From the NCBI GenBank assembly GCA_051294375.1, contig CM119271.1, positions 13,888,372 to 13,952,371 of the forward strand: 64,000 nucleotides of DNA, given 5' to 3'. A program made the translations under genes and the position numbers. Positions 168 through 54,122 of this stretch are shown one piece after another. This stretch comes from Paraspadella gotoi (taxonomy: Eukaryota > Animalia > Chaetognatha). Positions within the stretch are counted from its first letter, which is position 1. Each line of letters opens with the position of its first letter. The notes beneath the pieces are model-generated. The model searched no databases. It had not been told where the DNA came from and saw only the letters and a list, made by a program, of their open reading frames with translations.

Positions 168-3898
<3,731 letters not shown>

Positions 3899-18142: not shown

Positions 18143-18200
18143 TTTTAATAGACGGACATGTTTCGACTCTTTGAATTCGAGTCTTCATCAGCGTTTAAAA
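18143..18200 (-). ncRNA. Minimal type I hammerhead ribozyme motif (intact core, GUC cleavage triplet)
   Basis: Minus strand: ttttaaacg CTGATGA a gactc gaattcaaa gagtc GAAA catg TC cgtctattaaaa. Stem II gactc/gagtc, stem I acg/cgt plus ttttaa/ttaaaa, palindromic ACATGT stem III. Confidence 0.8.
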
Positions 18201-18810: not shown

Positions 18811-18868
18811 TTTTAAACGCTGATGAAGACTCTTATTCAAAGAGTCGAAACATGACCGTCTATTAAAA
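18811..18868 (+). ncRNA. Hammerhead ribozyme motif copy with U16.1 changed to A (likely inactive)
   Basis: ttttaaacg CTGATGA a gactct tattcaa agagtc GAAA catg AC cgtc; core at 18820-18826 and 18847-18850. Confidence 0.7.
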
Positions 18869-26685: not shown

Positions 26686-27215
26686 CGAGAGGTCGAATAG
26701 CAGGCGAACTTTGCGAGAGGCCGAATCTTCTTCGTGATGCCGTCTCCAATGCTCAAAAACTTTGGCAGCCGAAAGAAACAAAAAAAAAAAAACTATGTAT
26801 CTAGCGACACTTATTTATATCGGGAACTTGTAGAAATTAACTCTCCTCTGGTTGGTAGTGTTAAGTACTATCCGATTTCTTTTAATCTTTTGCTAATTTT
26901 GCGATTTTATCGTTTTTAAATTTAGCGTAATTTTTTTTTTTTTGCCGAGCTTTTTTTATTCTTTGGTTAAAATGATAATTTTAACCATTTGTTTGTAAAT
27001 GTGACACGTTTGGTATATTTTTTTTCATCACTATTCAAAAAAGATTTAAAAAATCAAAATCAAGATTTTGTTGCCTTTTTATCTAAAGAGAGTAAAGAGT
27101 AAGGCGTAGTAAAATTTCTAAATTTAACTTTAAAATTCTAAAAGTGAGGAACGAACAACATTATACTAATGAACATTTATATATAAAAAGAATTTATAAT
27201 AAACTTTACAATTTA

Positions 27216-27593
27216 TGCAGTAGGCCATATTTGTACTAATCCAATAAATGCTAAAATTTCAAAACTGTTTTTTCTAAGATTTTTTTGAAGATTTGGATTC
27301 GTCATAAAAAGTTGATGAAAAGAAATATAACTCTTTTTGAAAAATTCCTTCATTAAGTGGGACAAAAATTAGAAAACGCTATATTTTAAGCTGAAGATTA
27401 ACTTTTTATATATTAAATATAGTTTTTTTTAATTTTTAACCCACTTAATGAAAGAATTTTTTAAAATGATTTATATTTTCTTCCATCAACTTTTGACGAG
27501 GAATTTAAATTTGCAATCAAAATTAAGAAAAGCCTATTTCGAAATTTTTCGATTTTATAAGGATAGTACTATATATAAATATAGCCTACTGCA
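27216..27593. mobile_element. MITE-like palindromic element (~378 bp) just upstream of GALE
   Basis: Ends tgcagtaggccatattt / aaatatagcctactgca; inner inverted pair tcgtcataaaaagttgatg / catcaacttttgacga. Confidence 0.65.
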
Positions 27594-27705
27594 AAAATTA
27601 AAAAAACAAATTAATTTTCACCGATGGTATGTTGTTCAGAATTGACTTTTAGAATTTCCGTACATAACTTTCACTACGCTCTAGTAAAGACGCCATCCGA
27701 CGAAG

Positions 27706-30700: not shown

Positions 30701-33700
30701 TCTTAACGTCGATTAGTGCTCTTTTGATATGGATGTGACATAAGTGTAATGTATGAGCTCGGTCAAATGATTTGTTTAAATTTTGAGCAATGAACGATCA
30801 TAGTGATACTTCTTGCTGGGTTGGTGTGACGCGTGGTCTAACTATGAACCTGAGTTTGGGCGGCGATTAACTACTTGCATAATAAATTTACGGTGCTCAT
30901 TCGTTAACCTCATGGAAACACAATTTATTATCCGCTACACTGCAATGTACCAAACGTCACTTATTTCATTTTAACCTGTGGCTTTTTAGTTTTAAAGCGT
31001 CAGAGCACAGATTCCAATCGCCTTAAATTGCCACAGTGTACGGCCTATCCAAACCAGAAGAGTTTTCTTAATTTAATTTTCCGAGATTCTTGTGCCTTTG
31101 ACGGATTTCCAGTTTTTCGAGTTTTTATTTCCGAGTTTTGAAGCTTCCAAGTTCTTTGCAAGGATGTACCTTGATCACGGCGTACGATGCACCAAGCTGT
31201 TAGGACCCGCCGGTCCGTCCTCCTCCTAAAACGCCCCGAGAATATTCGAAGAATATTTGAGGAAACTCCTCAACCCGGCGAGATGCTTCGGTATTCCAGA
31301 GATTCTTCAAAGGCATGATTTGGTGGCTTGAGCAGATCGACGATCAAATAGTCTCTTTATTTCTCTGAGTTTATGAAGAGTTTAAAAAGGGTACCTTAAT
31401 AAATAATCAAAGCATATAGATATTCAAACAGTACAATAAAGAATTATTATTTAAACACAAAAGAATTACAAAAATCAGTATAAACTCAAAAACCAATGAA
31501 TAAACTAAAGCACGAATGACGAAATGATCCAAACGATAAATCCTTGTGACGAAGTAAAGTTCGAACTCAGATATCACGATTCGCGAGTCTTTGGATCTAA
31601 CATTATCGTTCTTTTTTTGCAATTTGCTTCTCGCGCCTGTAATTGTGGGTTCGTTCACAAGATTATTATTGTGATTTCTTGGCGACGGCTGGTGACTATT
31701 AAACTATTAAACTATTAACTATTAACTATTAACTATTAAACTATTAAACTATTAACTATTAAACTATTAACTATTAAACTTATTCACTGACGCATAGGGT
31801 ATTTCGCGATAATGACCGACGTGACTAGAGTAGGATGTTGCCGGGTGACTGGTTACCTGGTAACTGGCTTCACTGGAGATTATAGAGCTGAAACTAATAC
31901 CATTAGTTATATTAATATTAATAATAATATTAATACTATTAATATATCAAGGAATAACGAATCCTTACGGCAAAACCAAGTTCTTCATCGAGCAAATCCT
32001 TGCCGACGTCGCAGCCGCCGACGAAGATTTCTCCGTCATCAATCTCCGCTACTTTAATCCCGTGGGGGCGCACCCTTCGGGGATGGTGGGAGAAGACCCA
32101 CGAGGTTGGTTGTTTGCGGTGGGGCATGTTTTAGGGAAAATGAGGGGCGAATTCTTTTTAATCTTTTTCCCTCTTTTTTCCTTCGGACAGGTCCTCCGAG
32201 CAACCTGATGCCTTTCGTGTCCCAAGTCGCCATCGGTCGTCGCCCTTTGCTCAACGTCTTCGGCGCGGACTACGACACTTCCGACGGAACAGGTGAAGTC
32301 GACGAGGAACGAGTTTGAGTCTTAGGCAATAAACAATTAAACATCCTTCTCTTACTTCTTTCCCCGACCACCCCCTGTTAGATTAGATTAGGACTCACAC
32401 TCGAACACGTACTTTCTATGATAATAAACACGATGCTCACAGAACTGAAAGGGAACAAGTAATGAATGAACAGTGAATATCAATGAATATAAATATGAAT
32501 ATCACATGTCGGAAAGTTCAGTCTTTGGAGATTCCTCTTCACGATTCCGTCTCCATCACCCCCGTCTCCGCCAGGCGTTCGAGATTACATCCACGTGGTC
32601 GATCTTGCTCGAGGTCACCTGTCGGCTGTGAATAAACTGGCCGAGATGGCGGCGGCGGAAAAGGCGGGCGCCGGTGAGGGCAAAGGTTGGTTGTTGTTGC
32701 ATGAGCATTGGAGTGGGACTTGGGTTATGAATACTTCTCTATATTGTTGCATCTTCAGATTTATTACAATAGCTAAATAACTAAATAGAAATAGAATTTA
32801 TCTTTTTAAATATAATTATTGTTTATTTAATACTATATTCAACACTTAATACATTGAGCAAGGACTTCAGATATATAGGACTCTAACATGAGAGTACTTC
32901 CCTTGATTTTTTTTGTTCGTAGTGGTTAATTACATTATTTATTGTATTATTAACTTAACATTAATAATATTACACAAGATACATAATGGTTATTATATTA
33001 TAAGTGGTAAGCTAAGAAAAGGGCTTAGTGGTTCAGACCGACCCTGAATTTTTTTTTTTAATACCAAAATCATAAACAATAACAGTGTAAAAGACTGGAA
33101 AACAAGTAAAAACTAAACTACATATTGAAATTCAATAAAAACAAAAGACACTAACGTTTAAAATCATTAATAAATGTTATGAACTAATTCATAAGAAACT
33201 ATAAAAATAACGTTCAAGAACGTTCAAGGATCAAATGTAAAAATCATAAAACCGGAAAAAGTAAAAAACGAAAAATGTCAAGTATAAAAAGGAAGCGACA
33301 TTAATAAAGTGTTTAATAAGTAAACTGTCATGGTTTCATTTTTCATAAAACGTCATTATAAGTATTTAATGCTTAGTGTATAACATATACCCAAAAATAT
33401 ATAATTATAATGTGTTAAAGTAAAGGGCAGAGGGACCACAATGCTATTAATAGAAATAAAAAACTACAATCAATATGTATATATATATTATATATATATA
33501 TACTATATAAGCACGCAAATCAACAGAAAGAGACACTAATAAAAACAAAGAGACGCTAAAAACGAAATGAGACGCTAACAAATACTCGAAAACCTATATC
33601 ACGTAAGTGTAAGAGTATATCACGTATATAAAAACTAAGAGACGCTAATAATAATAAAGACAATAAAAAACAAAGAGACGCTAATAAAAATAATGATAAT

Positions 33701-35547
33701 AATAATAAAAACAAAGACGCGAATAAACAAAGAGACGCTAATAAAAATACCACAAAAAAATATAAATGTGTTCCCTCAACACCCAATACGATATACCCTC
33801 ATTAATTAAATAAGTTCCAAAAGCCATGAATAAAATGTTATGAACTAATTCATAAGAAACTATAAAATATAACGTTCAAGAACGTTCAAAAATCAAATTT
33901 TTAAACCAAAAAATATAAAAAGTAAAAAATAAAAATACAGTAAGCAAGTTAAAACTAAACTATTAAAAATCAGCAAAAACAAAAGACACTAACGTTTAAA
34001 TGAGCTCATGAATAAAATGTTATGAACTAATTCATATTTAAATCATAAAACCAAAAAAAGTAAAAAGCGAAAAATGTCAAGTATAAAAAGGAAGCACCAT
34101 TAATAAAGTGTTTAATGCGTAAACAGTCAAGGTTTTATTTTCATAAAACTTCATTATAAGTATTTTATTTTCATGAAACTTCATTATAAGTATTTAATGT
34201 TTAGTGTATAACATATACCCAAAGATGTATAATTATAATGTTTTAAAGTAAAGGGTAGAAGGACCACATTGCTATTAATAGAAATAAAAAACTACAATCA
34301 ATATATATATATACATATACACATATACACATATATATATACATACATATATACAAGCACGCAAATCAACAGAAAGAGACACTAATAAAAACAAAAGACG
34401 CTAATAAAAACAAAGAGACGCTAAAAAAGAAATGAGACGCTAAAAAATACACAAAAAACTATATCACATAAGTATAAGAGTACATCACATATATAAAACA
34501 AAGAGTAAATCACGTATATAAAAACAAAGAGACGCTAATAAAAATAATGATAATAATAATAAAAACAAAAACTCTAATAAACAAATAAAATGATAAGGAT
34601 AATAATAAAAAAAAATAATGATAATAATAATAAAAACAAAGACGCTAATAAACAAAGAGACGCTAATAAAAATACCACATAAAAAATATAAATATATAGA
34701 GATCCAAGCTGACCATTGATTTCACCTTAGAATAATAAAGTATTTATGAGTTATGAAAAGGTCAGCCAGGATAGAGATAAACTCTCAATCATTAATGACA
34801 TAATTATTCTATCAAAATTATCACAAAATTATCTATGAATCAATTATAAACTACTAAACAACATAGAAAAGCATTGTAAAATCCAAAATATGACTAATAA
34901 TATACTGTACAAAAATCAACTGGAATTAAAATTATTTACTACTATATGCAAATGAGATTTATGCAAGTTGTTCTAAGAATCTATCTCTTTCAGTAATTAT
35001 TGTTGTAGTTTTAATTTTGTCCTTGTTGGCGAAATCAAGAGTTGTGGCTTTGAAATGCGGATTGACGTGGATTTTAAGATCTTCATTACTTAAAGAATAA
35101 AGAGTCTCAAAATTTGTAAAAAAAAATTTTCTTCCCTTAACTCTCGAATGCTTAAAGCCTCTCGATGTCTGACGTTGAATCTGGGAACGGGAAAGGGCTA
35201 CTCTGTGTTGGAGATGATTAAGGGCATGGAGGCCGCCTCGGGCAAGAACATTCCCTACAAGATCTGCCCGCGTCGTCTCGGCGACGTCGCTGTCTGTTAC
35301 GGCGACGTCCGGTAAAAAAATTATTATGTATACTATACTATACTATACATTGTATAGTTTGGAAATAATTAATTGGGTCTTTTAATCAATTGGAGTTTAT
35401 GGTCAATGCAGGCTGGCAGAGTCGACCCTCGGATGGAAAGCGGAGAAAACTCTGGCTGAAATGTGCGCAGATCTGTGGAATTGGCAGACGAAGAATCCCC
35501 ACGGATACGCAGAGGAAGCCGCCGTAAACGGGGATGTATCGCAATAA
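27706..35547 (+). CDS. GALE: UDP-glucose 4-epimerase, ~9 exons, two introns enlarged by insertions
   Basis: [129 protein letters not shown]; stop 35545-35547. Confidence 0.96.
28445..28852 (-). repeat. 3' LTR (408 bp)
   Basis: Matches 31198-31602 apart from three 1-bp homopolymer indels seen by eye; preceded on the minus strand by the purine tract ggggtgggggaggag (28854-28868). Confidence 0.95.
28888..29012. repeat. 21-bp tandem repeat (atcgatggaaacgtctttgga), ~6 units, inside the LTR element next to the PPT
   Basis: Directly visible. Confidence 0.9.
30046..30400 (-). pseudogene. Truncated gag-like remnant
   Basis: [37 protein letters not shown] resembles the LxxxLxGxAxxxYxxL...DYxxLKxxLxxxF pattern of gypsy gag capsid regions; same strand as PBS/PPT. 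Confidence 0.55.
31185..31194 (-). promoter_or_regulatory. Primer binding site TGGTGCATCG, compatible with the 3' end of tRNA-Gly(GCC)
   Basis: Begins 3 nt after the 5' LTR on the minus strand; complementary to ...CGAUGCACCA. Confidence 0.7.
31198..31602 (-). repeat. 5' LTR (405 bp)
   Basis: See paired LTR at 28445-28852. Confidence 0.95.
31696..31780. repeat. 7/8-bp tandem repeat (actatta/actattaa)
   Basis: About 11 units. Confidence 0.9.
33100..34700. repeat. A-rich tandem duplication (~840-bp period) with ~20-bp sub-repeats (aaaaacaaagagacgctaat) in a GALE intron
   Basis: aaaaacaaaagacactaacgtttaaa at ~33138 and ~33976; long blocks 33240-33770 and 34040-34690 align. Confidence 0.85.
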
Positions 35548-36747
35548 GAACCAGAAAAATTAAAAAAAAAACAACCAAAAAATGGGGAGGAAACGAATAT
35601 TGGGTTTCTTACTAGTAGACTTATTTGTCTAAATGGCATAGTCGTATATCCTTTTATTCAATTTATAGTTTGGATGAAGTTTTTGAGTTCTGTAGTACTC
35701 ATTACTCAATTCGGTGCGCTTGTAAGTGGCTTATTCGGTGTTCTTAATCGTTGCACGTCGAACGAATGCATTCCAGTCTTATTGCCTAATAGCGCGGAGT
35801 ATAAATACAAGAAATAATAAAAGACATCTTGTGCCCTCCTAATTTTTTGAAACATATGTAAAACTATTCCCTAAGATCAAAAAATTAAAAATTCGCTTGG
35901 CCAATTTTCCCGTTCTATCGATTTTATAATGCGATTAGATGCAAAAAAATTGGAAAAATAGCAAATTTAAAAATAAAATAAAAATGGTTAGTATTATTAA
36001 TTTATATAAAATATAGCTAAATCCTAGTATTTAAAACTCTTTTCAACTATATAGATATAAAAAACTTGTATTAAATAATGTTTAAATATTATTAAAAAAT
36101 TGTATTTTTTGGGGAAAAATATAAAAGAATTCAAATAATAGGAAAAATGAATAATCAAATAGTTTTAATCAAATATATATGAAATAAGAAAATATATAAC
36201 TGTTTTCATTTGTAAAAAGTTATTTTATCTATTAATATATAAAGTTTTTTTATTTTTTTGAACCACAAAAAATAAAGTAAAATAATAAACTAAGGCGATT
36301 AGGAAACTAATAAATTTATGGATCTGGGTATTTATTCAAATGGTGTTTAATACTTTCATAATATAAACAAAAAGAAAAATAAATTATTAAAAAAATCCTC
36401 TCAGGCAAGAGAGGTTATGTTTATGATATAAAAGGCATCAGGCATTTCACCTCACACTATTGTTGCCTTTAAGTCAAGTCTGATATTCTTTTTTTCTTCC
36501 ATTTTATTGAGTTTGAGATAAGAACAGCGTCAGAGAGGTTTATTTTTAATATTTACTAAATTTATTATTTGTAAATGTTAATGTCTCTCTCTCTCTCTCT
36601 CTTACCAATTGACCATTTCCCTTCTTTTCAAAACTAAATTCAATCTGTCCTTACCCTTGGCCTATTCTCACCACTGATTACTGTCCTTTCTAAACTCTGT
36701 GTTGGAAACTTTGCTCTCTCTATCTCTCTCTCTCTCTCTCACTTGTT

Positions 36748-37085
36748 ATTCGATCATAAAAGTTTCTCTGGAAAAGATCGGCTGTATGGAACCGTAGTTT
36801 TTACTTTATAAAATGTCTATTATTTTCTATGCCACGAGGGTCGCGCGTTCGTTTCGTCGGCTGTAGGTTAAACTGGCTTTAACATGGAGCAAGGTTTTCT
36901 AAATCTCGAATGACGTAAATGTCGAATAAATGACGAATAAATCGTGAATAAGTTTATTTATTGTAGAGGTAAATAAATGGCGAATTTAAAGTAGTACAAT
37001 AAGTTCATGTAGAAAATCCTTGGATTCCGTAAAAACTACGGTTTCATACAGCCGATCTTTTCCAGAGAAACGATTATGATCGAAT
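36748..37085. mobile_element. MITE (338 bp) with ~57-bp terminal inverted repeats
   Basis: attcgatcataa..gtttctctggaaaagatcggctgtatggaaccgtagtttttac / gtaaaaactacggtttcatacagccgatcttttccagagaaac..ttatgatcgaat. Confidence 0.85.
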
Positions 37086-37246
37086 TCGGCTAAAAGAAGG
37101 CGACGAGAAAGGGACTAGAACGGTGAAAAGACTGGTCTGAAAAGGTCAACTAAATGACCAGGGAAAAATGACCAGACGCGAGGTCACAAAATCTTTCACT
37201 CTCTCTCCCCTTCTTTAAATGAAACATTTGTGAATAATTCACAAGA

Positions 37247-37300
37247 CATTTTGGCGCTGAAGAGGGCTCGAATTTGAGCCGAAACATGTACGTCTATAAT
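37247..37300 (+). ncRNA. Minimal type I hammerhead ribozyme motif (intact core, GUA cleavage triplet)
   Basis: ggcg CTGAAGA g ggctc gaattt gagcc GAAA catg TA cgtc; stem I ggcg/cgtc; stem II has a compensatory change relative to the 18 kb copies; AATAAA follows. Confidence 0.8.
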
Positions 37301-38600
37301 TAAATAAATTGTTGTTGCAAAAGTATTCACACTATTCCTTTTAATCTATTTATTGTAAGAAATTAACATCCTTGTTATACAGACTAAAATGAGTCAATAA
37401 AATGTTAAACAAAATTGATAGAGGTTTATGAAAATAGTGATAAAATTAATTTTGCTGAACAAATTGTAATAGTAATTATTATTATTATTATTATGGTTAT
37501 TATTAATTGTACTAATATTTAACAGAGTAGTTCTTATTTAAAACGATTTTACCCATCTTTCATGAGAATTTTTGTCATTTTGATAAAAAAAAAAGACAGA
37601 TCGGCCAGAGCAATCTACGGAAGGGAGGGAGAGTGGTAATGGGTAAGGCCTATGGTAAGTCAAGCTGGTAAAGCTTATTATAAGCTGTATAAAGTTTAAT
37701 GTAGCTACTAAAAGCTTTTATAAGCTTTAAAAAGGATATTGACTGCGTTATGTGGCTTGGTACTTAATTTCCATTTTGCTTAATTTTTAACAATTTTTTA
37801 TGAAAATACTTATCTTTTAGAATCACTCAATATTTATATAAACATACTTTTGTGTATTTTTTATAGATAAAAATGGGTTTAAATTCTTTGTTTTAACTAT
37901 ATTTTACTTTAAAAAGTGAACTTAACCAGCTTTCTCTGATATAAAATTTTGTTATTTTTTTACAATTTTTTGCATCAAATTGCTTTATAAAATCGATAGA
38001 ACGGGAAAATTGAGCGAACGAATTTTCATTTTTTTTATCTTGGGGCATAGTATTATATCAAATACAAAAAATTAAGGGGACACAAGAGGTCATATATCAT
38101 ATATTGTATTTATGCTCCGCGCCTAAGAACCAAACTCAAGGTAGTTGTTGGAAGACAAATATTTTTGTTTAGTCGAAAGTCAAAACCGATAGTAATAAAT
38201 TTCATGCGGGTGCTAATTGACAATAATCTAGATCTAGATCTTCACTTATGTTGGAACTGAAATTTATATGTTTTACTGTTTCCGTTTACCAGCTAATTAA
38301 TAAACCATTTAACCGAGTACGTATTTAGCACAAATTATTTTTTTACCGCTTTTATATTTTTATTTTTGAACCCAACGTATTAATAATATTAATAATCTAG
38401 TTTTTATGTTATTTATCTTTTTAGTGCGCTATAAAAATGCGGGAAAGAGTGAGCGAAATATTTACTATGATGACATTCCGAATATGATATGACGTGAATC
38501 AAGAACCCATATGCGCCCATCCAAACCCACCATAAGCTAATCTTTCACAGTATCCTCCCCCTGTACTGCATTCCGTCCACGAGATCCCAGATTCTTCCAA

Positions 38601-42513: not shown

Positions 42514-42680
42514 TTGTTGATCTCGATATTTATTCTTGGAGAGGGAGGCGTCTCAATTTATTTTTATAATTGTTTCGACTCATATTGTTTTATCCGATTT
42601 ATTTCATTTTAGATTAAAACCAGATATTTTTCTCTTTTTTATTTTTTTTTTTATTTTTGACTCGTTTTCCGTCAAGATTT

Positions 42681-43939
42681 ATGCATTCGATTCGTCTCAA
42701 TTTTTCACAAGCAACGAGGTTCGAGAAGTTTCGAACCCTCCATATTTTGGCGCGACTCCACGACGATGTCGCAATCCCGAAATTTCCGAATCAGTTTTCC
42801 CGCGATTTCGTCCGAGATTCCGTCGACCTTTCCCCCGATCGGCGACCGACGGAGCCCGTTCGAGACGTGGGCACGGAACAATCTTTTCGCCGTGCCCTCA
42901 ACTTGGAATGGGGCTACACCGCTATCGACGGCCCGGCCCATTGGCCCGAACATTTCCCTACCGCTTCGGGCAGCATCCAATCCCCGATCGACTTGTCCCT
43001 CGCCACCTCCGTCCACGATCCCAGCCTCTCCGGAGAACCGCTCTCGTGGAGCTACGTTCCTGAAGACTTGGCGCGCGCCTTCAACAACGGACGCCATCTT
43101 CACGTCATCGCCAGTCGAAAGAGGTCGCTACTAGCCGGCGGTCCCTTGCGCGGCCTCTATCGCCTAGAACAGTTACACTTTCATTGGGGCGACGTGAAAG
43201 ACTACGACCACGGATCCGAGCACACCCTCGATGGACGCGCCTTTCCCGCCGAAGCTCATCTCGTCCACTACAACGCCGCCTACGGGGAATTCGCCCACGC
43301 CGTCGTCAAGAGCGACGGCGTCTGCGTTCTTGCATCTTTCATCCAAGATGGCGACGAAAACGAAGCCGCTCGGCCGCTGTTCGACCTTCTGCTTCGGAAG
43401 TGTCGATTTAAAGTTCGTTGTGTTTTTGTTGTATTATTCTCTTCTCTTCTCTTCTCTTCTCTTCTCTTCTCTTCTCTTCTCTTCTCTTCTCTCTTCTTTT
43501 CTCTTTTTCTTTTTCCCCTTCTGCTTCTCCTTTCCCTTACGTTCTTTTTCTTTCTTTCGTCTTTCCTCCTTCTTTTTACATTCCATACAATTTCAACCCT
43601 TTTGAAGTCAACTAACCAATAACATCCCAATAACTCACCCAACAAAACCACAAGGGCGACGTGATGGACCTTACCTCCCTGGGAGGCTTCGACGCCACCT
43701 CCCTAATCCCCTCTTCGCTCGACTACTTCACCTACTCTGGGTCCCTGACCACGCCCCCTTGTTTCGAGTCGGTCAAGTGGATCGTCTTCGTCGAGCCCGT
43801 CACTTTCTCTCGGGCGCAGCTCGACATACTCAAGAATCTGCACGCCGACAGGGACGAGCACGGGCAGCTCATCAGCAACAACTATCGCCCAATCTGCCCT
43901 TTGAATGATCGATTGCTCGTTCGAAGCTTTGGAGAATAA
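42681..43939 (+). CDS. Alpha-carbonic anhydrase (2 exons: ~42681-43412, 43655-43939)
   Basis: WGY..GPAHW, QSPIDL, NNGRH, QLHFHWG, GSEH, FPAEAHLVHYN (three Zn-ligand His intact), YSGSLTTPPCFESVKWIVF, NNYRP. Start codon inferred. Confidence 0.93.
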
Positions 43940-44085: not shown

Positions 44086-47000
44086 ATGATGGCTCCACCG
44101 CGCCGTTGTGGCGCCAACTTTAGTTTGATAGTTATAGTCGTCGTCGTCGTCGATGTTTTCTCGATTCTTCAGGTCGAGTCTAAGTCCAACTTGACCTTCA
44201 ATTCTGAATTCAAGATTGAGGTTCGAAAAACAAATAATTAAAAATAAAATCCTAAATTAAAATTTAAGTATTTATTTATCATTTACCGACTAGTTGATTT
44301 CAGGGCGTGAGCCTTGGCCAAGTGAGCGGCGTGGCTTTGACTTTGGAAGGCGACCTTCTCGTCTTTCATCGTGGCAACAGGGCATGGGGTCAAGACACTT
44401 TCAACCCGGACAATACTTTATCCCAAAAATATAGAACGCCCATTTCGCAGAATACAATTCTTCTTGTAAAGTAAGACATTTGAATTATTAGTTATGACAA
44501 TCAATTTTTATTTATTAATGTCGTCTATTTCATAAGGCAGAATACCGCGAAAATTAAGCACTTAACTGGTGCAAACATGTTTTACATGCCTCATGGTATC
44601 ACCGTCGATCACGAAGGAGCCGTTTGGCTCACTGATGTCGGCACTCACCAGGTAAGAGCATTTGTTTAATCAGATTAAATGTTGATTTATGAGAAAAGAG
44701 AAGAAAAAAGTCAAATTAGTAATATTAAAAGGAGTCTTTAGCAGAGTATCTGAATAATTTAATTAATAAGCTATCTTGCCCCTGATCAATGATGATCTGA
44801 CACATCTGATATATCTCAGTGAAAGAGTCAAATAAGAAATATTTGTAGGTCTTCAAGTTCTCATCGTTATCGGCGTCTGAGCCTGCATTGACCCTGGGTG
44901 AGAAGTTTGTTCCTGGAAATGACGACCATCACTTCTGCAAACCGACCGACGTTGCTGTTGACTCCGAGGGAAATTTCTTTGTCGGTGATGGATATTGCAA
45001 TGTTCGAGTCCTCAAATTCTCCCAGGACGGAAAGTTGATCGCGGAAATGAAGCCTCTTGGAACCAATTTTAGTATTCCTCACAGTTTGACTCTGGACAAT
45101 TACTCAGGTAAGGGGCCATTTTTATTTTTCATTTCACTTGTCTTTTTGTTTACATCTACTCTTTTCTCAATACTGAAGACGAATTGTACGTCGCGGACCG
45201 CGAGAACGGAATCATTAGAGTTTTCCACGCGTTTACGTGTGTTGAACTTCGTCGCATCGAATCCTCGCAATTCGGTCGTGTTTTCGCCGTTGCATTTTCG
45301 GCCCAGGGGAAACTGCTGTATGCCGTCAACGGTGAGATAGAGTCATTTCACGCCAGTTTGTAATTTTTAATTCCTTTATGGAATATTAATTCTATATCGG
45401 TCCACCTCGCCACGAAATGCCCTTTTGTTCGCGGTAGTCGATAGATCGCGCGTTTATCAGAGTAAGAAAAACGAACAAAATAACATCGAGAGATGCAAAA
45501 AAGAAAAACCAGGGAACGCCGTCACATGACCGGCCCTGACCAATGGAAGCCCGGCAAATCCTCCTCGGGCTCCCTCTCCCTCATCCGGGCTTGGAAGTCC
45601 TCAATCGTCTCCAGAAAGGTCCCGGAGAGGCGCCTCAAGCGACGCCCCTGTAGAAAAACCAGAAGACGGTCTTTTGCGCGCCAGAACAAAATCCAGCGCG
45701 AAGATGACGCCGAGATCCACTCCGCGAGCGTCGATCCCGGAAACTTCGAGACCTCCGAGAAGAGGTCCCCGAATGGGAGCGAAGCACCACGTCGAGGGCC
45801 GACGGACGGCGGAGCGGGGCGCAGAAGAGAAAATCGTGCGGCGGCGCAAAAAGGAGAGCTAGTGCCGTCGTCTGGGCCGCGATACGAGGGCGGCAAAACA
45901 TCAAGATGCGTGGGCGGGCCAAAAGGCCCGATCCTAAAGGTCTAAAAACGTCGATGGAACCAAACGCCACAGGACTGCCACTGAGGAAGGTGGCCCGCGT
46001 CGCAGCGAAGAGAAAAGAACTCTGAAGGGCGACGTGCCGATGCTAGAGCGACGAAGAAGCGCGAGCGTCGGAGAAAAACGCCCGGCGCGACCGGAAGTGG
46101 CGCCGTGTCGAAGCGCAAAACTGAGGCGGCGCTCCCTTCAGGGAGAGTTGCTGAGACGGCTGATCCGAGAAGGTTGATCGTGCTGTCGGCGAGACCCTTC
46201 TCGCACAACTACCCGAGGAAACGCAGGACGTCTTCAGGAGAGACTGCAGACCCTTGAGCCTCTCCATCCCGAAGGAAGACGTCAGAAGAGACTCCAAGCT
46301 CCCGCGAAGAGCTCCCTGTTAGACCTCTCCAGCATCGGCAATGATGGAGAAGGTAGAATTGTCGAGGTCAGAAAAAATGGCAACGCCTAACAACCTCCTG
46401 ACGGCGAGCTTGAAAGCGGCGGTGGAAACCCTGAATCAAGGTCTGCGACAAGGTCCTTGGACGCCGGAAAGCGTCTCCTCCAGAAACCGAAGAGGCTCAA
46501 AACCCAACTGAGCCCGCCAGAGCGTGGAGATCAGGGGAAAAACGCCCTTCGTCATCCCCTGCTTGTGGATCTCCAGCGTCAGAAGAGAAGGGTAGGCCAG
46601 GCCAAGGGCCCAGACAAGGCGCCAAGGCGTCTATCCCCTCCGCTTCCGGCGTCGCCTCCCATGCGAAACAGTTGAACTTGAGCTGAAAGGGGCGACGCAA
46701 AGAGGTTGATGCTGGAGGAGGTTGAGGACGTCGACCAACTGAAGGAACACCCTTCGGGGAAACCAGATCGCCAAGTTGCGGCTCCTCAACGCCTGACCTG
46801 TGAGGAGAACCTCCTCTGAGTAAGAAAACCCTGAGCAGCGGATCCTCAACTACGAGGCAAGAAGAGTCTCTCTGATGAACTTGAGGAGAACCCGCGACCT
46901 GCTGCAGTCCCAAAGAAGGCAGAAAAGGGTGATGAGGCTGACCATCTCCCTAAGATGGATGCGCTGTGGAGTGAGGCCCTGAACTTGAGGGGAGGCTTCC

Positions 47001-50000
47001 GGTCGTCACCTCCAGCGTGCAAAACCTGCAGAAGGTCGCCCAGGCGACGTCAAACGGCGCAAAAAGCTGGCCTGGAAAGGTCTACGGTCCTCCATCGCTG
47101 GAGAATGAGCGGGGTCAGGCGGTCAAACCTTCTTTGCCCTTTAGGCGCGAAAGAAAACTCGTCGGATCAATGAAGGCCGGCAACGCAGCGGCGGGGCTCG
47201 CCAAGGATGCCGCCGTCAAAAGCCAAAAGCTGACAAGCGCGCGGAGAGTGCGTTGGCAGAGAAGAAAAACCCCGTCTCCTTGAGCCACATCGTCCGTCGA
47301 GTGGCTCGTCGATGGTCATCGCGCGTACGCCGAGTGGCTGGTCGACAGTTCATGCGCCGAGTGCTGGTCGATCAGCAGCTGCACTGGCCGAGTGGCTGGT
47401 CGACAGTCATGCGCCGAGTGGCTCGTCGACAGTGGTCTGCCAAGTGGCTCGTCGACCGTGGTTCGCCGAGTGGCTCGTCGATAGTGGCTCGCTGAGTGGC
47501 TCGTCGACAGAGGTTCGCCGAGTCGGTCTCGTCGACAGTGTCGCCGAGTCCTCGACAGTGGTCCGCGAGTGGCTCGTCGACAGCGGACCGCCGAGAGGCT
47601 CGTCGACAGTCAATCGCCGAGTGTGTCGAGGGGTCCGACGACATCGAGAGGCTCGTCGACATTCTCCCGGCTGGAGAGCCCCGGAACCAGATGTCGTATG
47701 AGAAGGCGGCGGCGTGAAAACGACATCGAAACGCCAGTGGGGCGGAAGCGCCTGACAAGAGCGTCGACGTCCTGACGAGTGAAAAGTCCCACCAAGCGCC
47801 TCGTCGAGGCGTCCTTCGAAGGACGCGCCATCCAGCATGAAAAAGAACGGGAGATGAGGTCCAAGATCAAAAAGGGGCGCCGTCTCCGTCCATCGGAACG
47901 AGGATGATCTTGGGGAAGAAGCCCAGCGACGCCGAGACTCCCTTGAAGGCGTTGTTGAACGACGCCGCCACAAACTAAGTCGACCAACGGCGTGAGTCTC
48001 CAAAGGAAGGAGACTAGACGGGACCTCCACGCCCAGTGAGCGGGGATCCTGAAAGGCCTTGGAGGAAGGGTGACGCCCTTCCAATGAAAGATGGGCCTCC
48101 GATGGGTAAATCCGAGAGGATCGCCGGCGTAGAGAAGTCCGAGCACCCAAAAACCGGTGGCGGAGCTAAGACGTGAACGCGATGGCGGCGTTACGATGCA
48201 AGAGCCGGGGTGAATCCTGGCTAAATCCCGTGGGTCGGACATCTTGGACCACTAGCGCTTGAAAGACCGCTTGGGAAGGAAGCGAGGGCGCTTGTCGGCA
48301 GCGGATCTAGCACGGGGGTTGAAACGACGCCGCGTCGAAAAGTGGGCGCCGAAACCACCTGCGTCTCCTGACGGCGGAACTCGCCGATGGAGCGGCTGAG
48401 GGACGCCGCTAGAAAAAAACGCCGCGTCGCAGATCAGGGGCGGCGAGGACGTCAACGCTGGGAGGAGACGTCGATAGGAAAGAGTGCCGATGTCACCGGC
48501 GCCTCCTGAAAGCCGGGGCGCCGCTGAGTCTCCGATGTCGGATCTCACCGACGAAGCGGTCGAGGGACTTTGCTAGAAACGCCGCGTCGTGGAGCGGGGC
48601 GGCGAGGACGTCAACGCTAGAAAAGACGTCGTCCCTGGACGAGCCATAGCGGAGAGTAGCCTTGATGAGGTTTCGCCGATGGTCGGGTGGCTCGTCGACC
48701 AGTGTCCGGCCGAGTGGCTCTCGACAGTGGTCCGCGAGTGGCTCGTCGACAGCGATCCGCCGAGAGGTCTCGTCGACAGTCAATTCGCCGAAGTGTGTCG
48801 AGGGGGTTCCGACGACATGCGAGAGGCTCGTCGACATTCATCCCTCGGCTGGAGAGCCCGAATCCAGATCGTTCGTATGAGAAGGCGGCGGCCGTGAAAA
48901 CGACGAGTCGAAACGCCGGGGGCGGAAGCGCCTGATCAAGGCAGGCGTCCGACGGTCCTGACGAGTGAAAAGTCCCACCAAGCGCCTCGTCGAGGCCGTC
49001 CCTTCGAAGGAAACGCGCAGCATCCCAGCAATGAAAAAGAACGGGAGATGAGTACCAAGATCAAAAAGGGGCGCCGTCTCCGATCCAATCGAACGAGATG
49101 ACTGGGAGACAGCCCAGCGACGCCCGAGAAACTCCCTTGAAGGCTGTTGTTGAACGACGCCGCCACAAACAAGTCGACCAAGCGGCGTGAGTCCTCCAAG
49201 GAAGGACTAGACCGGGAACTCCACGCCCCATGAGCGGGGATCCTTGAAAGGCCTTGGAGGAAGGGTGACGCCCTTCCAATAAAGTGGCACTTCCGATGGT
49301 AAAATCGAGAGATCCGCGCGGCGTAGAAAGTCCGAGCACCCAAAAACCGAGTGGCGGAAGCTAAGACGTGAACGCGAGATGAGCGGCGTACGATGCAAGA
49401 GCCAGGGGTGATCCTGGCTAAATAAACTCGTCGGATCAATGAAGGCCGGCAACGCAGCGGCGGGGCTGCCAAGGATGCCGCCGTCAAAAGCCAAAAGCTG
49501 ACAAGCGCGCGGAGAGTGCGTTGGCAGAGGAAGAAAAACCCCCGTCTCCTTGAGCCACATCGTCCGTCGAGTGGCTCGTCGATGGTCATCCGCCGAGTGG
49601 CTGGTCGACAGTCATGCGCCGAGTGGCTGGTCGACAGTCATGCGCCGAGTGGCTCGTCGACAGTGGTCTGCCAAGTGGCTCGTCGACCGTGGTTCGCCGA
49701 GTGGCTCGTCGATAGTGGCTCGCTGAGTGGCTCGTCGACAAAGAGAGAGATGGAGAACCCGCGACCTGCTGCAGTCCCAAAGAAGGCAGAAAAGGTGGAT
49801 GAGGCTGACCATCTCCCTAAGATGGATGCGCTGTGGAGTGAGGCCCTGAACTTGAGGGGAGGCTTCCGTCGTCACCTCCAGCGTGCAAACCTGCAAAGGT
49901 CGCCCAGGCGACGTCAAACGGCGCAAAACGCTGGCCTGGAAAGGCTCTACGGGTCCATCCTCGCTGGAGAATGAGCGGGGTCAGGCGGTCAAACCTTCTT

Positions 50001-53000
50001 TGCCCTTTAGGCGCGAAAGAAAAACTCGTCGGATCAATGAAGGCCGGCAACGCAGCGGCGGGGCTTCCAAGGATGCCGCGTCAAAGCCAAAGCTGAAAGC
50101 GCGCGGAGATGCGTTGCAGAGAAGAAAACCCCCGTCTCCTTGAGCCACATCGTCCGTCGAGTGGTCGTCGATGTCATCCGCCGAGTGGCTGGTCGAACAG
50201 TCATGCGCCGAGTGGCTGTCGACAGTCATCGCCGAGTGGCTGGCGACAGTCATGCGCCGAGTGGCTGGTCGACAGTCATGCGCCGAGTGGCTCGTCGACA
50301 GTGGTCTGCCAAGTGGCTCGTCGACCGTGGTTCGCCGAGTGGCTCGTCGATAGTGCTCGCTGAGTGGCTCGTCGACAGAGGTTCGCCGAGTGGCTCGTCG
50401 ACAGTGGTCCGCCGAGTGGCTCGTCGACAGCGGACCGCCGAGAGGCTCGTCGACAGTCAATCGCCGAGTGTGTCGAGGGTCGCGACGACATCGAGAGGCT
50501 CGTCGACATTTCTCCCCGCTGGAGAGCCCGGAACCAGATGTCGTATGAGAAGCGCGGCGGCGTGAAAACGACATCGAAACGCGCATGGGGGAAAGCGCCT
50601 GACCAAGAGCGTCGACTGTCCTGACGAGTGAAAAGTCCCACCAAGCGCCTCGTCGAGGCGTCCTTCGAAGGACGCCGCCATCCATCATGAAAAAGAACGG
50701 GAGATGAGGTCCAAGATCAAAAAGGGGCGCCGTCTCCGTCCATCGGAACGAGGATGATCTTGGGGAATGAAAGCCCAGCGACGGCCGAGACTCCCTTGAA
50801 GGCGTTGTTGAACGACGCCGCCACAAACTAAGTCGACCAACGGCGTGAGTCTCCAAAGGAAGGAGACTAGACGGGACCTCCACGCCCAGTGAGGCGGGAT
50901 CCTGAAAGGCCTTGGAGGAAGGGTGACGCCCTTCCAATGAAAGAGTGGGCCTCCGATGGGTAAATCCAAGAGGATCGCCGGCGTAGAGAAGTCCGAGCAC
51001 CCAAAAACCGTGCCGGGCTAAGACGTGAACGCGATGCGGCGTTACGATGCAAAGCCGGGGTGAATCCTGGCTTAAATCCCCGTGGGTCGGACATCTTGGA
51101 CCACTAGCGCTTGAAAGACCGCTTGGGAAGAAGCGAGGGCGCTTGTCGGCAGCGGATCTTGCACGGGGGTTAAACGACGCCGCGTCGAAAAGTGGGCGCC
51201 GAAACCACCTGCGTCTCCTGACGGCGGAACTCGCCGATGGAGCGGCTGAGGACGCCGCTAGAAAAAAAAACGCGCGTCGCAGATCAGGGGCGGCGAGGAC
51301 GTCAACGCTGGGAGGAGACGTCGATAGGAAAGAGTGCCGATGCTACCCGGCGCCTCCTGAAAGCCGGGGCGCCGCTGAGTCTCCGATGTCGGATCTCACC
51401 GACGAAGCGGTCGAAGGGATTTGCTAGAAACGCCGCGTCGTGGAGCGGCGGCGGCGAGGACGTCAACGCTAGAAAGACGTCGTCCCTGGACGAGCCATAG
51501 CGGAGGTAGCCTTGATCCTGCGCGCAGCCCCGTCAGCGATCAAGAGGGAGGCGTTAACGTCCGCAACATCAAACCTGCGGCGCAAGAGGGAACGGAGAGA
51601 AGTCGTGAAACCCTTGGAAAACGCCCTCTCAAAAATCGCGGGAGAAGCACTTGAGCGGCGTCGGAACGGTGAACTCCGACAAAGTCGCGAGGACCCAGAA
51701 GCGGTTCAGCTGGCCGCCTGGCGTGCAACGCGTTCCTGCCGAGAACGTCGTCGATCCCTGCGCGGGCGAAAAGTCGCGGACCTAAAGGGTCCACCGTCCA
51801 AGTACTAACGGGCCCGACGTTGCTTAACTTCGGTGATCAGCCGAGAGCGGAGGAACCAACGTGGGATAGATGGGGGANNNNNNNNNNNNNNNNNNNNNNN
51901 NNNNNNNNNNNNNNNNNNNNNNNNNNNNNNNNNNNNNNNNNNNNNNNNNNNNNNNNNNNNNNNNNNNNNNNNNNNNNNNNNNNNNNNNNNNNNNNNNNGG
52001 AGGGACCTTCGTCAACCTGTTCGTCAGCAGTGGCTCATAAAAGCCGTTGAATTCTTTATCAGATAAAGACGGTGCTTCTCCTTCCTCCGCCGTAATCGGA
52101 GGAACATTCGGCGTCCGGATCCGGCACTTTGTGGGACCGGAGCCGCTTAGATGGAGGCGAGGCCGCTTGGCGGTCTGGGGCGTATCTGAGAGGGACGCCC
52201 ACTGGAGTCGAAACAGCTTGGAGATGCATGGAACAGCTTGGAAGGAGATCGAAGCGAGTCAGAGCGGCGAAGCGTAGTGGAGAAAAACCGGACCGATATG
52301 GAATCGTCACATGTAAAAAAACGTAAGCGGTAAACAAATTAGCGCGAGGAATTAAACGAAAAAACTCCCGAACCCCCCCCCTCCCTTCTCCCCCAACCCC
52401 CTTTCCCTACGCCACACCAAAGCCATGAAAAAAATGGTAGGTGACAAAAAAGGGGAGGACGGTGGGATCGTGGCGAGGTGGACCGATATAGAATTAATAT
52501 TCCATAAAGGAATTAAAAATTCTCATATCGGTCCACCTTGCCACGAAATGCCCCCTGCCAAGAGGCGGAGGGAAACCAGTTCTAAAAATAATTTTCGATC
52601 GAAAACGAAAAATAAGAATTTTCAAAATCACCCAAAAAAATTGAAAAAAAAGAAATAAAGGAGAAACAAAAAGAGGGAGGCGAGGCGTTCAAAAGAACGA
52701 GCTAACCCCCACTACGCCCCCAACGGGTAACAACTCACCGCTAGAGAGCGTCGAGACGCTGGAAAGACTCGCGTAGAAACTGTCGAAATCCTTCATCCAA
52801 GCTGTTCAATGACGAGATCATCGTCGTGTGGACAGACTCCAGTCCTCTGGCCCGGACAGACGGCGGCCTGTCCCGACCGGCCGCCACTTGGCCCGACAGC
52901 GGTGTAAGCAGCTGACGCGGGCGAGACCCCCACCGCTCGGCCGGGCAACGGAAAATGTCGGTTGGTACGGGCCGAGCCCCCTAAAACCGATGGAATCGGG

Positions 53001-54122
53001 CTGCCGAAAACCGCGGTTATAGGGGGGAGAAGGTGGCAGTGGTGGGGGTGGTGGCGGCGGGGGTGAGACCGCTCAGGTCCTTTGACCTCTCAAGCCCCCC
53101 TCTGAGGGATCTCCATTCCCTCTCTACGACCCAGAGACTTGTCCGAACGTGTACGGTTGACGGGCTGCCTGCCCGAACGTTCGTCTCTGATATCGATATC
53201 GATATAATATATATTTATATATATAATGAGCGGATTTCGGTCGTAAAAACCTTAAAAAATACTCGAGAGATTCACGAAATCGTGAAAAACGTGAGAAAAA
53301 ACTCGAGAAAACGCCAAAAAACGTGAGAAAAAACGCGAAATCTAATCAGTGAGAACCGAACTCGTGAGCGCGAAAAAAAGATTGAGGACTTCCAAGCCCG
53401 GATGAGGGAGAGGAGCCCGAGGAGGATTTGCCGGGCTTCCATTGGTCAGGGCCGGTCATGTGACGGCGTTCCCTGGTTTTTCTTTTTTGCATCTCTCGAT
53501 GTTATTTTGTTCGTTTTTCTTACTCTGATAAACGCGCGATCTATCGACTACCGCGAACAAAAGGCGCATTTCGTGGCGAGGTGGACCGATATGAGAATTA
53601 TGGAGTTCCAACTTTTAAGTTTTACCCAAGAAAATCCAAAACCCAATTAAAATAATACAACTTAAATGAAACCAGTTGACAAACCTTCAAAATGTAATTT
53701 TTCGCTCTTCATATCTAACAGACATGAAGACAATTTCAGACATTTCATTTCAGACAATTCACAAATTAATCTGCTACACATATACGAATGGACGTCTCTT
53801 GGCAGCCCTCGTCGGCTGCCACGAACGCCCATGCTGTTGATCAACTAAGCGCATTGAAAATCAGTGTTACTGTCAGTTTTATCAAATGTTAATCTAAAAA
53901 TGTTTATTTTTCGCGTTTTAAATTCCAGGCGGCTCGGAAAATCCAGAAATCAAAGTGAAAGGCTTCACGATTTCTGGCTCTGACATCGTCGACTCGTGGA
54001 ATCGATTCTCCTCAAAATTTCATCAACCTCACGACATCGCCGTCAGCAAAAATGGAAAAAACGTCTTCGTCGCCGAAATCGGGCCCAACCGAGTTTCCAA
54101 GTTCACCGTCTCTCGTCCTTAA
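44086..54122 (+). CDS. Monofunctional peptidyl-alpha-hydroxyglycine alpha-amidating lyase (PAL, NHL repeats), ~6 exons; last intron ~8.6 kb contains the DIRS-like element
   Basis: Hydrophobic leader, LGQVSGVAL..LLVFHRGNRAW, FYMPHGITVD..WLTDVGTHQVFKF, LGEKFVPGNDDHHFCKPTDVAV..FFVGDGYCN.RVLKFS, FSIPHSLTL, VADRENG, then after the intron FHQPHDIAVS..VFVAEIGPNRV; stop 54120-54122. No PHM domain upstream. Confidence 0.9.
45387..45606. repeat. Left ITR (3' ITR of the element), preceded by the ~25-nt terminal extension 45362-45386
   Basis: Reverse complement of 53380-53599 with only a few small differences. Confidence 0.93.
45635..46260 (-). pseudogene. Frameshifted, deleted tyrosine recombinase remnant
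   Basis: SPEDVLRFLG*LCEKGLADSTINLLGSAVS (N-terminal domain), FFVALASARRPSE (first catalytic Arg motif), PGST.., RGVDLGVI..RAG..SG..T.FWFFYR (C-terminal Tyr region), spread over several frames. Confidence 0.75.
46480..47060 (-). pseudogene. RNase H and methyltransferase-like (MT) remnants of the DIRS pol ORF
   Basis: EVTTEAS (cf. TTDAS) and IHLREM (cf. HINxLE), clearest in the duplicate at 49612-49926; PEAEGIDAL...WPGL and LISTLWRAQ (cf. ILIAPxWPxQ). No RT YxDD motif found. Confidence 0.5.
46885..51515. repeat. Internal block duplications and ~20-bp tandem repeats (cgccgagtggctcgtcgacagt) within the DIRS-like element
   Basis: 46885-48665 is repeated at 49752-51515; partial third copies at ~48690-49740. 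Confidence 0.9.
51788..51867 (-). ncRNA. 5S rRNA-derived segment (about nt 11-92 of 5S, including the internal Pol III control region); not a full 5S gene
   Basis: Minus strand atcccacgttg gttcct ccgctctcggctgatcaccgaagttaagcaacgtcgggcccgttagtacttggacggtggacc matches the invertebrate 5S pattern ATACCACGTTG..CCGGTTCTCGTCCGATCACCGAAGTTAAGCAACGTCG.GCCCGGTTAGTACTTGGATGGGTGACC (recalled, not searched). Confidence 0.85.
51878..51998. other. Assembly gap (121 N)
   Basis: Run of N. Confidence 1.
52468..52551 (-). other. Internal complementary region (ICR) of the DIRS-like element
   Basis: tcgtggcgaggtggaccgatatagaattaatattccataaaggaattaaa-AATT-ctcatatcggtccaccttgccacgaaatgc is the reverse complement of the left end joined to the reverse complement of the right end through a shared AATT. 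Confidence 0.92.
53380..53599. repeat. Right ITR (5' ITR of the element)
   Basis: Reverse complement of 45387-45606; ends gaccgatatgagAATT. Confidence 0.93.

What the first reader, a model, noticed from the sequence alone, without database searches (positions are those of the whole stretch)
51788..51867. 5S rRNA-derived Pol III promoter segment embedded in a DIRS-like retrotransposon
Seen: ~80 nt of 5S-like sequence on the element's sense strand, keeping A-box-like (agttaagcaa), intermediate and C-box-like (tacttggacggtggacc) parts and the acgttg/caacgt helix, but lacking both strands of 5S helix I. Known: 5S capture defines Cassandra TRIMs and SINE3. I know of no 5S-bearing DIRS. Inference: a YR retroelement using a captured TFIIIA/Pol III promoter or 5S mimic. 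Caveat: it lies 10 nt from the N gap and could be a separate SINE3 or pseudogene insertion.
Basis: partly seen in the sequence, partly recalled or inferred. Interest (0 to 1): 0.8.

Follow-up and report, generated by a model that had tools for sequence, protein, structure and literature searches.

The report
5S promoter cassette inside DIRS retrotransposon
A recombinase-type (DIRS-like) jumping gene carries in its leader a worn piece of the 5S ribosomal RNA gene that has kept the gene's control signals, and related copies carry it at the same place, so it likely acts as a small separate RNA polymerase III unit rather than as the promoter that copies the element.

Summary
Observation confirmed. 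51788-51867 (minus) is 85% identical over 82 nt to a full 5S gene (E 2e-20). The N gap has no real length: contigs from 4 of 6 runs laid join across it. The piece lies inside an element with DIRS1-type inverted termini, an internal complementary region (ICR) and a broken tyrosine recombinase on the same strand; RT was not shown. Two diverged subfamilies carry the 5S core at the same place; one relative shows none. The promoter span (5S positions 33-92) is conserved while helices I, III and V decay, and a T4-T7 run follows box C. The piece starts about 470 nt downstream of the ICR and 32 T-runs follow it, so it cannot make the replication template or the mRNA, unlike Cassandra, Ajax or SINE3. 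Best reading: an integral Pol III cassette kept for factor binding; transcription and purpose are untested. The ICR sits at the 5' end, which is unusual. Literature searches and the scan's earlier notes showed no 5S-bearing DIRS.

The parts
45362..53599 (-). DIRS1-like tyrosine-recombinase element, broken copy, inserted antisense in an intron of an NHL-repeat (PAL-like) host gene; both ends carry AATT
   Evidence: termini; host exons on both sides
53380..53599 (-). 5' (left) inverted terminal repeat
   Evidence: 222-nt alignment with the other ITR, 0 mismatches, 3 gaps
45387..45606 (-). 3' (right) inverted terminal repeat
45362..45386 (-). right extension (rE), complementary only to the ICR
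52468..52554 (-). internal complementary region, matching both termini, halves overlapping on AATT at 52518-52521; lies in the 5' leader, not at the 3' end
   Evidence: 54/54 identity to 45362-45415 and 35/37 to 53563-53599
51781..51872 (-). 5S rRNA-derived segment, about 5S positions 6-99
   Evidence: contigs
51788..51846 (-). conserved core, 5S positions 33-92: box A 51829-51818, intermediate element 51812-51808, box C 51800-51790 (box positions as in PMC3215682)
   Evidence: 55/60 to the L022 gene; at most 2/60 differences between subfamilies
51769..51772 (-). T-run, predicted Pol III terminator (T4 here, T5-T7 in contigs); may also be the pyrimidine tract of a splice acceptor ending at 51758
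51873..51998 (.). assembly gap of no real length (126 letters skipped by contigs)
   Evidence: joint 51872 to 51999 in X1, X2, X3 and X1, X4
45843..46973 (-). broken tyrosine-recombinase ORF, with part of the long N-terminal stretch that in DIRS1-like elements overlaps pol; in-frame stops and a gap of about 34 residues
   Evidence: phmmer E 3e-7 to P0003, P0003 = PF00589 above cut-off, tblastn E 1.5e-10, own HMM E 1.2e-6 and 6.7e-9
46885..49751 (.). extra tandem copies of the element's interior, likely an assembly artefact
   Evidence: 89 gap columns against 39 substitutions, more transversions than transitions; copies mapped

Best explanation
The segment is an old, integral 5S-derived cassette in the 5' leader of a DIRS1-like retrotransposon that likely still binds TFIIIA, TFIIIC and TFIIIB and would give a short RNA of about 100 nt ending at its own T-run, not the element's genomic RNA. 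Shown: 5S origin, position between the ICR and the coding block on the sense strand, linkage across the gap, presence in diverged subfamilies, conservation centred on the internal promoter, and a T-run after box C. Inferred: factor binding and Pol III transcription. Least certain step: it is kept because the bound Pol III complex marks a boundary in the leader, holding chromatin open and helping to set a Pol II start or block just ahead of the ORFs, so that a short-leader mRNA is made apart from the long ITR-driven template RNA with its 10 upstream ATGs and ICR hairpin. The short RNA would then be a by-product.
For: Linkage: joint 51872-51999 in 4 of 6 runs laid, 38-62 letters on the short side, two studies; a third study shows matching loose ends and a variant contig bridging the place. 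Recurrence: subfamily B (X1 record 4, X4 record 13, X9 record 23) and family C (joint 51635-51809 with 185 unalignable letters, then 37/40 to the core; X2, X3, X4, X7). Constraint: at most 2/60 differences in positions 33-92 against 8/27 in positions 6-32, 9/27 in 51761-51787 and 14/104 in the leader (Fisher p 0.001, 0.0003, 0.053; hand-read, computed, descriptive only). The element's sense strand is A-poor; 6 of 8 gene A's in positions 6-32 are changed but 0 of 12 in 33-92 (p 0.0007). This points to long residence with the core held fixed. DNA rather than RNA level: helices I, III and V are broken, the fold is no better than shuffles (z -0.43), and B copies change positions 80, 94 and 96, breaking helix IV pairs, while the G's of box C stay. 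The span matches the Drosophila and Xenopus control regions 37-44, 48-61, 67-72 and 80-90 (PMC3215682 section 8). T-run: T5 and T7 in the two contigs with all differences listed, T6-T7 in two more; 9.8% of 30-nt stretches of the element hold T>=5; family D, without a laid 5S core, has no T-run there. Assembled Pol III complexes block Pol II read-through and shape neighbouring 5' ends in yeast (PMC4228148, abstract).
Against: No RNA, ChIP or start-site data. Family D (X1 record 3, X4 record 12, X7 record 18, X9 record 22) aligns at 51644-51764 and runs on 106-211 letters with no 5S core laid; it is about 9 times deeper than the window-like copy in X9 (91.6 against 9-11), so the core is not needed by every relative. 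Family C has a T9 run in loop B that would stop Pol III early. 51731-51760 is as invariant between subfamilies as the core, so low divergence is not unique to it. The leader comparison alone is not significant (p 0.053). Helix II is fully kept (8/8), which a pure promoter model explains only in part. The T-run is followed by CAG and could be a splice acceptor. Gene conversion from the host's many 5S genes could also hold the core. The boundary role is an analogy from yeast tRNA genes, not tested for 5S promoters here.
Confidence: 0.5

Rival explanations
1. Passenger: a 5S fragment captured once (for example by template switching onto 5S rRNA during reverse transcription) and carried along, its core kept similar by gene conversion with host 5S arrays.
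For: The core differs from the host gene at one place over 51810-51846, and host-type contigs are about 20 times deeper than the single-locus flank (4895 against 219). Family D lacks a laid core, family C has a T9 run inside. Earlier scan notes read tRNA-like pieces in Gypsy elements as passengers (not tested here).
Against: Conservation ends close to the promoter limits (33-92) on both sides. C at position 84, where the proxy gene has T, is shared by all four contigs over that place, so conversion is incomplete. A T5-T7 run is kept amid one-third divergence.
Confidence: 0.2
2. RNA-level 5S mimic: the piece works as a structure, either in the short Pol III RNA or in the element's Pol II leader, binding TFIIIA or ribosomal proteins uL18/uL5 as a decoy, export signal or translation aid.
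For: Helix II is intact, 8/8 pairs, and is the predicted fold. Its 5' strand (14-21), outside boxes A and C, is kept 8/8 in the window and X9 record 23 and 7/8 in family C, between decayed loops.
Against: Helix III 5' strand varies without compensation (3/6 pairs in the window, 5/6 in X9 record 23); helices I and V are lost; helix IV is broken in B copies; folding z -0.43. Positions 14-18 fall in Drosophila control region I (PMC3215682).
Confidence: 0.15
3. Cassandra-like promoter: Pol III started at the 5S piece makes the element's template RNA or its mRNA.
For: Sense orientation, just ahead of the coding block, with intact boxes. This is the role in Cassandra and the proposed role in Ajax (PMC10886601 section 3).
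Against: The start lies about 470 nt downstream of the ICR, which is essential for DIRS-1 retrotransposition (PMC7192593, passages). There are 32 T>=4 and 15 T>=5 runs downstream on the sense strand outside the duplicated part, the first 18 nt after box C. Known Pol III-driven elements are under about 1.3 kb (PMC10886601, passage).
Confidence: 0.07
4. The T-run and following CAG are a 3' splice acceptor; the ICR and the 5S piece lie in a leader intron (one consensus donor at 52738), and the 5S piece is kept for another reason or none.
For: T-rich leader between 52300 and 52760; one GT[AG]AGT on the sense strand, upstream of the ICR; CAG at 51760-51758 unchanged in contigs, and family D keeps a pyrimidine tract before it; first downstream ATG is 200 nt away.
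Against: One such donor word is about what chance gives in 1.4 kb. No splice joint was seen, but no true RNA run was available. This does not explain the box conservation and can hold together with the best explanation.
Confidence: 0.2
5. A separate SINE3 or 5S pseudogene inserted into this one copy, or an assembly chimera at the gap.
For: The window's assembly is error-prone here.
Against: The gap closes in 4 of 6 runs; diverged copies carry the piece at the same place; the longest word shared by the two flanks is 7 nt and 230 nt away; there is no body or tail. An ancient SINE3 insertion in the family's ancestor remains possible as the origin.
Confidence: 0.03

Closest known systems
Cassandra TRIMs (plants; PMC10886601 section 3 and passages, PMC10853983 passages)
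   Same: 5S-derived stretch with box A, intermediate element and box C conserved, a core of about 60-70 nt, and a Pol III terminator, inside a retroelement.
   Different: Cassandra is a short non-coding LTR element with the 5S piece in both LTRs, where it starts the template RNA. Here it is single, internal, downstream of the cis-repeats, in a coding YR element with inverted termini.
Ajax TRIMs (nemerteans; PMC10886601 passages)
   Same: Animal retroelement with a partial 5S sequence, conserved around the promoter boxes, no canonical 5S fold.
   Different: Ajax is 421-434 bp with LTRs, PBS and 5-bp TSD; none of these is present here.
SINE3 (5S-headed SINEs; PMC10886601, PMC10946416 passages)
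   Same: 5S internal promoter kept with a diverged upstream part.
   Different: No body, LINE-type tail or TSD; not an independent mobile unit in the contigs seen.
DIRS1-like retrotransposons (PMC3266345 section 3 and passages; PMC7192593 passages)
   Same: ITRs, ICR complementary to both termini with overlapping junction, right extension, ATT-type ends, YR ORF with long N-terminal overlap.
   Different: ICR is in the 5' leader instead of at the 3' end; a 5S cassette lies between ICR and ORFs; RT, RNase H, MT and gag not demonstrated in this broken copy.
tRNA genes and ETC sites as Pol II barriers in yeast (PMC4228148 abstract)
   Same: Proposed working principle: a bound Pol III complex shapes neighbouring Pol II transcription.
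   Different: Type 2 (box B) promoters in host chromatin, not a type 1 promoter carried by a mobile element; analogy only.

Membership tests
DIRS1-like retrotransposon | Inverted terminal repeats | tested here: met
DIRS1-like retrotransposon | ICR complementary to both termini, halves overlapping on the junction; terminal extension | tested here: met
   25-nt extension at 45362-45386
DIRS1-like retrotransposon | ICR at the 3' end, after YR | tested here: not met
   ICR is 826 nt from the ITR that is 5' on the YR strand; 3' position described in PMC3266345
DIRS1-like retrotransposon | Tyrosine recombinase ORF | tested here: met
   broken in this copy, and the window's own translation has no Pfam hit
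DIRS1-like retrotransposon | RT, RNase H and methyltransferase domains | tested here: inconclusive
   no RT, RNase H or methylase Pfam hit among 34 and 77 fragments; no homologue of the 213-aa candidate among 1456 candidates; only the overlap part of the YR-ORF profile matches; motif-like words seen by eye only
DIRS1-like retrotransposon | gag ORF | tested here: inconclusive
   no profile hit
DIRS1-like retrotransposon | Ends on NTT trinucleotide, no ordinary TSD | tested here: met
   AATT at both ends and in the ICR junction, flanks otherwise unlike
Cassandra / Ajax (TRIMp3) | Two direct LTRs, each holding the 5S piece | tested here: not met
   one 5S match in the window; termini are inverted
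Cassandra / Ajax (TRIMp3) | Short, non-coding | tested here: not met
   about 5.2 kb without duplicates and gap, with a YR ORF
Cassandra / Ajax (TRIMp3) | Box A, intermediate element and box C conserved | tested here: met
Cassandra / Ajax (TRIMp3) | Pol III transcription from the 5S piece | not testable with these tools
   no RNA holder listed
SINE3 | 5S head followed by body and LINE-type tail, with TSD | tested here: not met
   T-run and element sequence follow directly; longest flank repeat 7 nt, far away
5S rRNA gene (RF00001) | Gathering score and helices I-V | tested here: not met
   24 bits against 38; helix I 2/9

The most novel reading that the evidence does not exclude
A lineage of tyrosine-recombinase retrotransposons with a rearranged plan (ICR moved into the 5' leader) has domesticated the host 5S promoter as a built-in Pol III mini-gene that separates its template RNA from its mRNA or shields it from silencing, possibly also making a functional 5S-like small RNA: a use of a captured Pol III promoter in a coding retroelement that is not for making the template.
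Probability: 0.3. Interest if true: 0.8.

Novelty: new variant of a known kind. Interest (0 to 1): 0.6.

Why it matters
In the sources read, captured 5S promoters occur in short non-coding elements (SINE3, Cassandra, Ajax), where they make the template RNA. The table passages of the 2024 rDNA-TE review list no DIRS, and the word does not occur in its text. A promoter-conserved 5S cassette in a coding YR element, placed where it cannot make the template, would be a second use of such captures. It gives a compact test of whether a TFIIIA-dependent complex can act as a boundary or start-site setter for a mobile element. The 5' ICR also tests the DIRS replication model, which predicts that ICR position should not matter if the RNA contains it.

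Tried and rejected
No whole genome is held, so copies could not be counted. No RNA holder listed; X9 is only guessed to be RNA. I first considered the plus strand as sense (purine-rich; stop-codon test weak) and dropped it when the YR mapped to minus. Pfam gave no retroelement domain on window fragments; the word-based search with the RT candidate found nothing; the ESM Atlas gave no answer. DIRS loci of the YR relatives could not be fetched: none in viral contigs, one unrelated bacterial hit in genome contigs. No YR profile hit in the 126 metagenome 5S loci (best E 0.23), so no second host was found; that sample is small and truncated. The short RNA as RT primer: longest complement to the element is 9 nt, at chance level. 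The X4 loose end at 51846 is a consensus of two records (agreement 0.82), a mix of host gene and variant, and was dropped. The idea that the abundant ITR/ICR-sharing elements lack the 5S piece was dropped: their loose end before 52094 still resembles the window, and 5S-like contigs may be filtered out. A compensatory-change test in family C was not possible because its 3 differences are not listed. A reading frame runs from the leader into the 5S piece in the window, but X9 record 23 is one base longer there and its listed changes show no third-position bias; rejected. The GGACC/GGTCC hairpin (z -2.18) partly rests on the two window letters that contigs contradict. The host carbonic-anhydrase search did not place the organism (one hit, 34%). 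The original Cassandra paper is not held. Literature searches for a 5S-bearing DIRS: (listings only, 4 of 5, 12 of 13, 25 of 30, 11 of 11, 30 of 116 papers listed); none showed one by title or term counts. Searches on ICR layout and introns. Repbase and most subscription papers were not searchable, and no supplements were read; Repbase entries or supplements of PMC3266345 and PMC9210276 could hold a similar element.

Full report
Observation. The minus strand at 51788-51867 is 5S-derived. Rfam alone gives only 24 bits (E 0.23, gathering 38). A 27-nt word from the segment retrieved 126 metagenome loci. All 20 that I scanned are 5S rRNA hits above gathering, and 98 of 138 matches are at least 100/119 identical to one full gene, L022. 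That gene matches the window at 85% over 82 nt, E 2.4e-20, and 28 of 33 positions of the core outside the fishing word agree. L022 serves as a proxy for the host gene: the organism's own contigs show the same 5' sequence as a loose end and one difference over 51810-51846. The host's box C was not seen directly. Homology spans about 5S positions 6-99 (51872-51781).

The gap. Nine runs of one organism from three studies hold the region; I laid six. Contigs join 51872 to 51999 in X1, X2 and X3 and in X1 and X4, with 38-62 letters on the short side; one search lists no letters between. X9 shows matching loose ends and a variant contig that bridges the place; X7 shows no joint. The 121 N's have no real length, and the 5S piece is continuous with the element's leader. 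All 4 contigs laid over 51808 and 51792-51793 have the 5S-gene spacing and letters, so the window's departures inside the promoter are probably assembly errors.

The element. 45387-45606 and 53380-53600 are inverted repeats (0 mismatches, 3 gaps). 52468-52554 is complementary to both outer ends, its halves overlap on AATT, both ends carry AATT, and there is a 25-nt extension at 45362-45386. This is the DIRS1-like terminal plan (PMC3266345, section 3 and passages). The element sits antisense in an intron of an NHL-repeat gene whose exons lie on both sides; the PAL label is from recalled motifs. A minus-strand frame read with X at four stops hit two proteins among 1.84 billion (best E 3e-7). The best is a PF00589 recombinase. 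A profile of 13 such sequences matches only minus 46973-46137 and 46112-45987 (E 1.2e-6 and 6.7e-9; next hit E 0.62). Sense is therefore minus, the 5S piece is sense, and the ICR lies in the 5' leader, 826 nt after the left ITR. The papers read place the DIRS1 ICR at the 3' end; moved internal repeats and inverted YR genes are described for PAT elements (PMC4157794, passages). RT, RNase H, MT and gag were not shown by any profile, so I file this as DIRS1-like in plan, not as a standard member. The extra copies at 46885-49751 differ mostly by gaps (89 gap columns, 39 substitutions) and are likely an assembly artefact.

Other copies. One search shows four sequence types over the 5S position, and a further diverged type at 51574-51737 whose link to this position is not seen. 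A: window-like. B: X1 record 4, X4 record 13, X9 record 23, about 87-90% identical, with the core in place. C: joined from 51635 over 185 unalignable letters to a 37/40 match of the core (X2, X3, X4, X7), with a T9 run in loop B; its box C could not be read. D: aligns 51644-51764 in 4 of 4 runs and runs on with no core laid, keeping only a short remnant like 5S positions 86-99 (inferred from two loose ends). So three of four types carry the core. The termini and ICR are shared with very abundant elements (summed depth 700,216 against 219 in the flank, X1; not a copy number); whether these carry the core is unknown.

What is conserved. Between A and B, positions 33-92 differ at no more than 2 of 60, against 8 of 27 in positions 6-32, 9 of 27 just after box C and 14 of 104 in the leader (p 0.001, 0.0003, 0.053; different contig pairs, related sequences, so descriptive). 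Against this, 51731-51760 is also invariant. The sense strand of the element is A-poor: 6 of 8 gene A's in positions 6-32 have changed, 0 of 12 in 33-92. The conserved span covers the control regions given for Drosophila and Xenopus (PMC3215682, section 8). RNA structure is mostly lost: helix I 2/9, III 3/6, V 3/6, with II 8/8 and IV 6/7 (recalled pair positions); B copies break helix IV further; the fold is not better than shuffles. A T-run follows box C by about 18 nt: T4 in the window, T5 and T7 in two contigs with all differences listed, T6 and T7 in two with two unlisted gaps each; type D has none there. A run of five or more occurs in 317 of 3229 30-nt stretches of the element.

Mechanism. 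The DIRS-1 template must contain the ICR (PMC7192593, passages). A 5S-type start here lies about 470 nt downstream of the ICR, and 32 T>=4 runs follow on the sense strand. So the cassette cannot make the template or a long mRNA by Pol III. This separates it from Cassandra, where transcription runs from the 5S piece of one LTR to that of the other (PMC10886601, section 3). I infer a short Pol III unit kept for factor binding. I commit to a boundary role: the leader holds 10 ATGs and the ICR hairpin, and bound Pol III complexes in yeast block Pol II read-through and shape adjacent 5' ends (PMC4228148, abstract). I put about 0.85 on an old integral cassette, about 0.65 on selection at the promoter level, and about 0.4 on the boundary role. 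Rivals are a passenger held by gene conversion, an RNA mimic resting on helix II, and a splice-acceptor role for the T-run, which can coexist with the main reading.

Novelty. Five searches pairing DIRS with 5S or Pol III terms (listings) showed no such element. PMC10886601 and PMC10946416 do not contain the word DIRS, and PMC3266345 does not contain 5S rRNA. Passages of PMC9210276, PMC2685390, PMC3783388, PMC5753468 and PMC10853983 were also read. Repbase, subscription papers and supplements were not seen. The scan's notes hold no finding with all the words and no look-alike stretch. Verdict: real and shared among copies, a new variant of a known kind of capture, function untested; interest 0.6.

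Noticed in passing
window 52468-52554: The ICR lies in the 5' leader of the element rather than after the recombinase; not found described for DIRS1-like elements in the papers read.
   Followed up: partly
window 52094-53150, 53418-53599: Leader, ICR and ITR are shared with very abundant elements in this genome; one contig joins the leader at 52758 directly to a right terminus, a deletion derivative without ICR.
   Followed up: partly
window 47290-47623, 48687-48780, 49563-49740, 50153-50470: A 26-bp GC-rich tandem repeat interrupts the presumed pol region.
   Followed up: no
window 44849-45330 and about 53770-54119: NHL-repeat gene, likely the lyase part of a peptide-amidating enzyme (recalled motifs), with the element about 35 nt inside an intron.
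   Followed up: partly
L029, L048, L057, L110, L121 at the match: 5S promoter core with an altered 5' part and a shared non-5S continuation after box C; SINE3-like family.
   Followed up: no
L006 2032-2144 and L019 2600-2716: 5S sequence to about position 100 followed by related non-5S tails; possible SINE3 heads.
   Followed up: no
L016, L007, L019: 5S genes linked to U1, U3, U4, U6 snRNA or tRNA genes.
   Followed up: no
X9 contigs at window 51809: Two records match the 5S core only to about position 71 and continue with unrelated pyrimidine-rich sequence; truncated 5S copies or another family.
   Followed up: no
window 18090-18920, 27210-27599, 35792-38122, 33055-34617: Inverted-repeat pairs and AT-rich direct repeats that look like MITE or other non-autonomous elements.
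   Followed up: no
window 950-1468, 8763-9275, 10735-11892, 42618-43619: Host gene pieces: HA2 helicase domain, UcrQ, WD40 repeat, alpha carbonic anhydrase.
   Followed up: no
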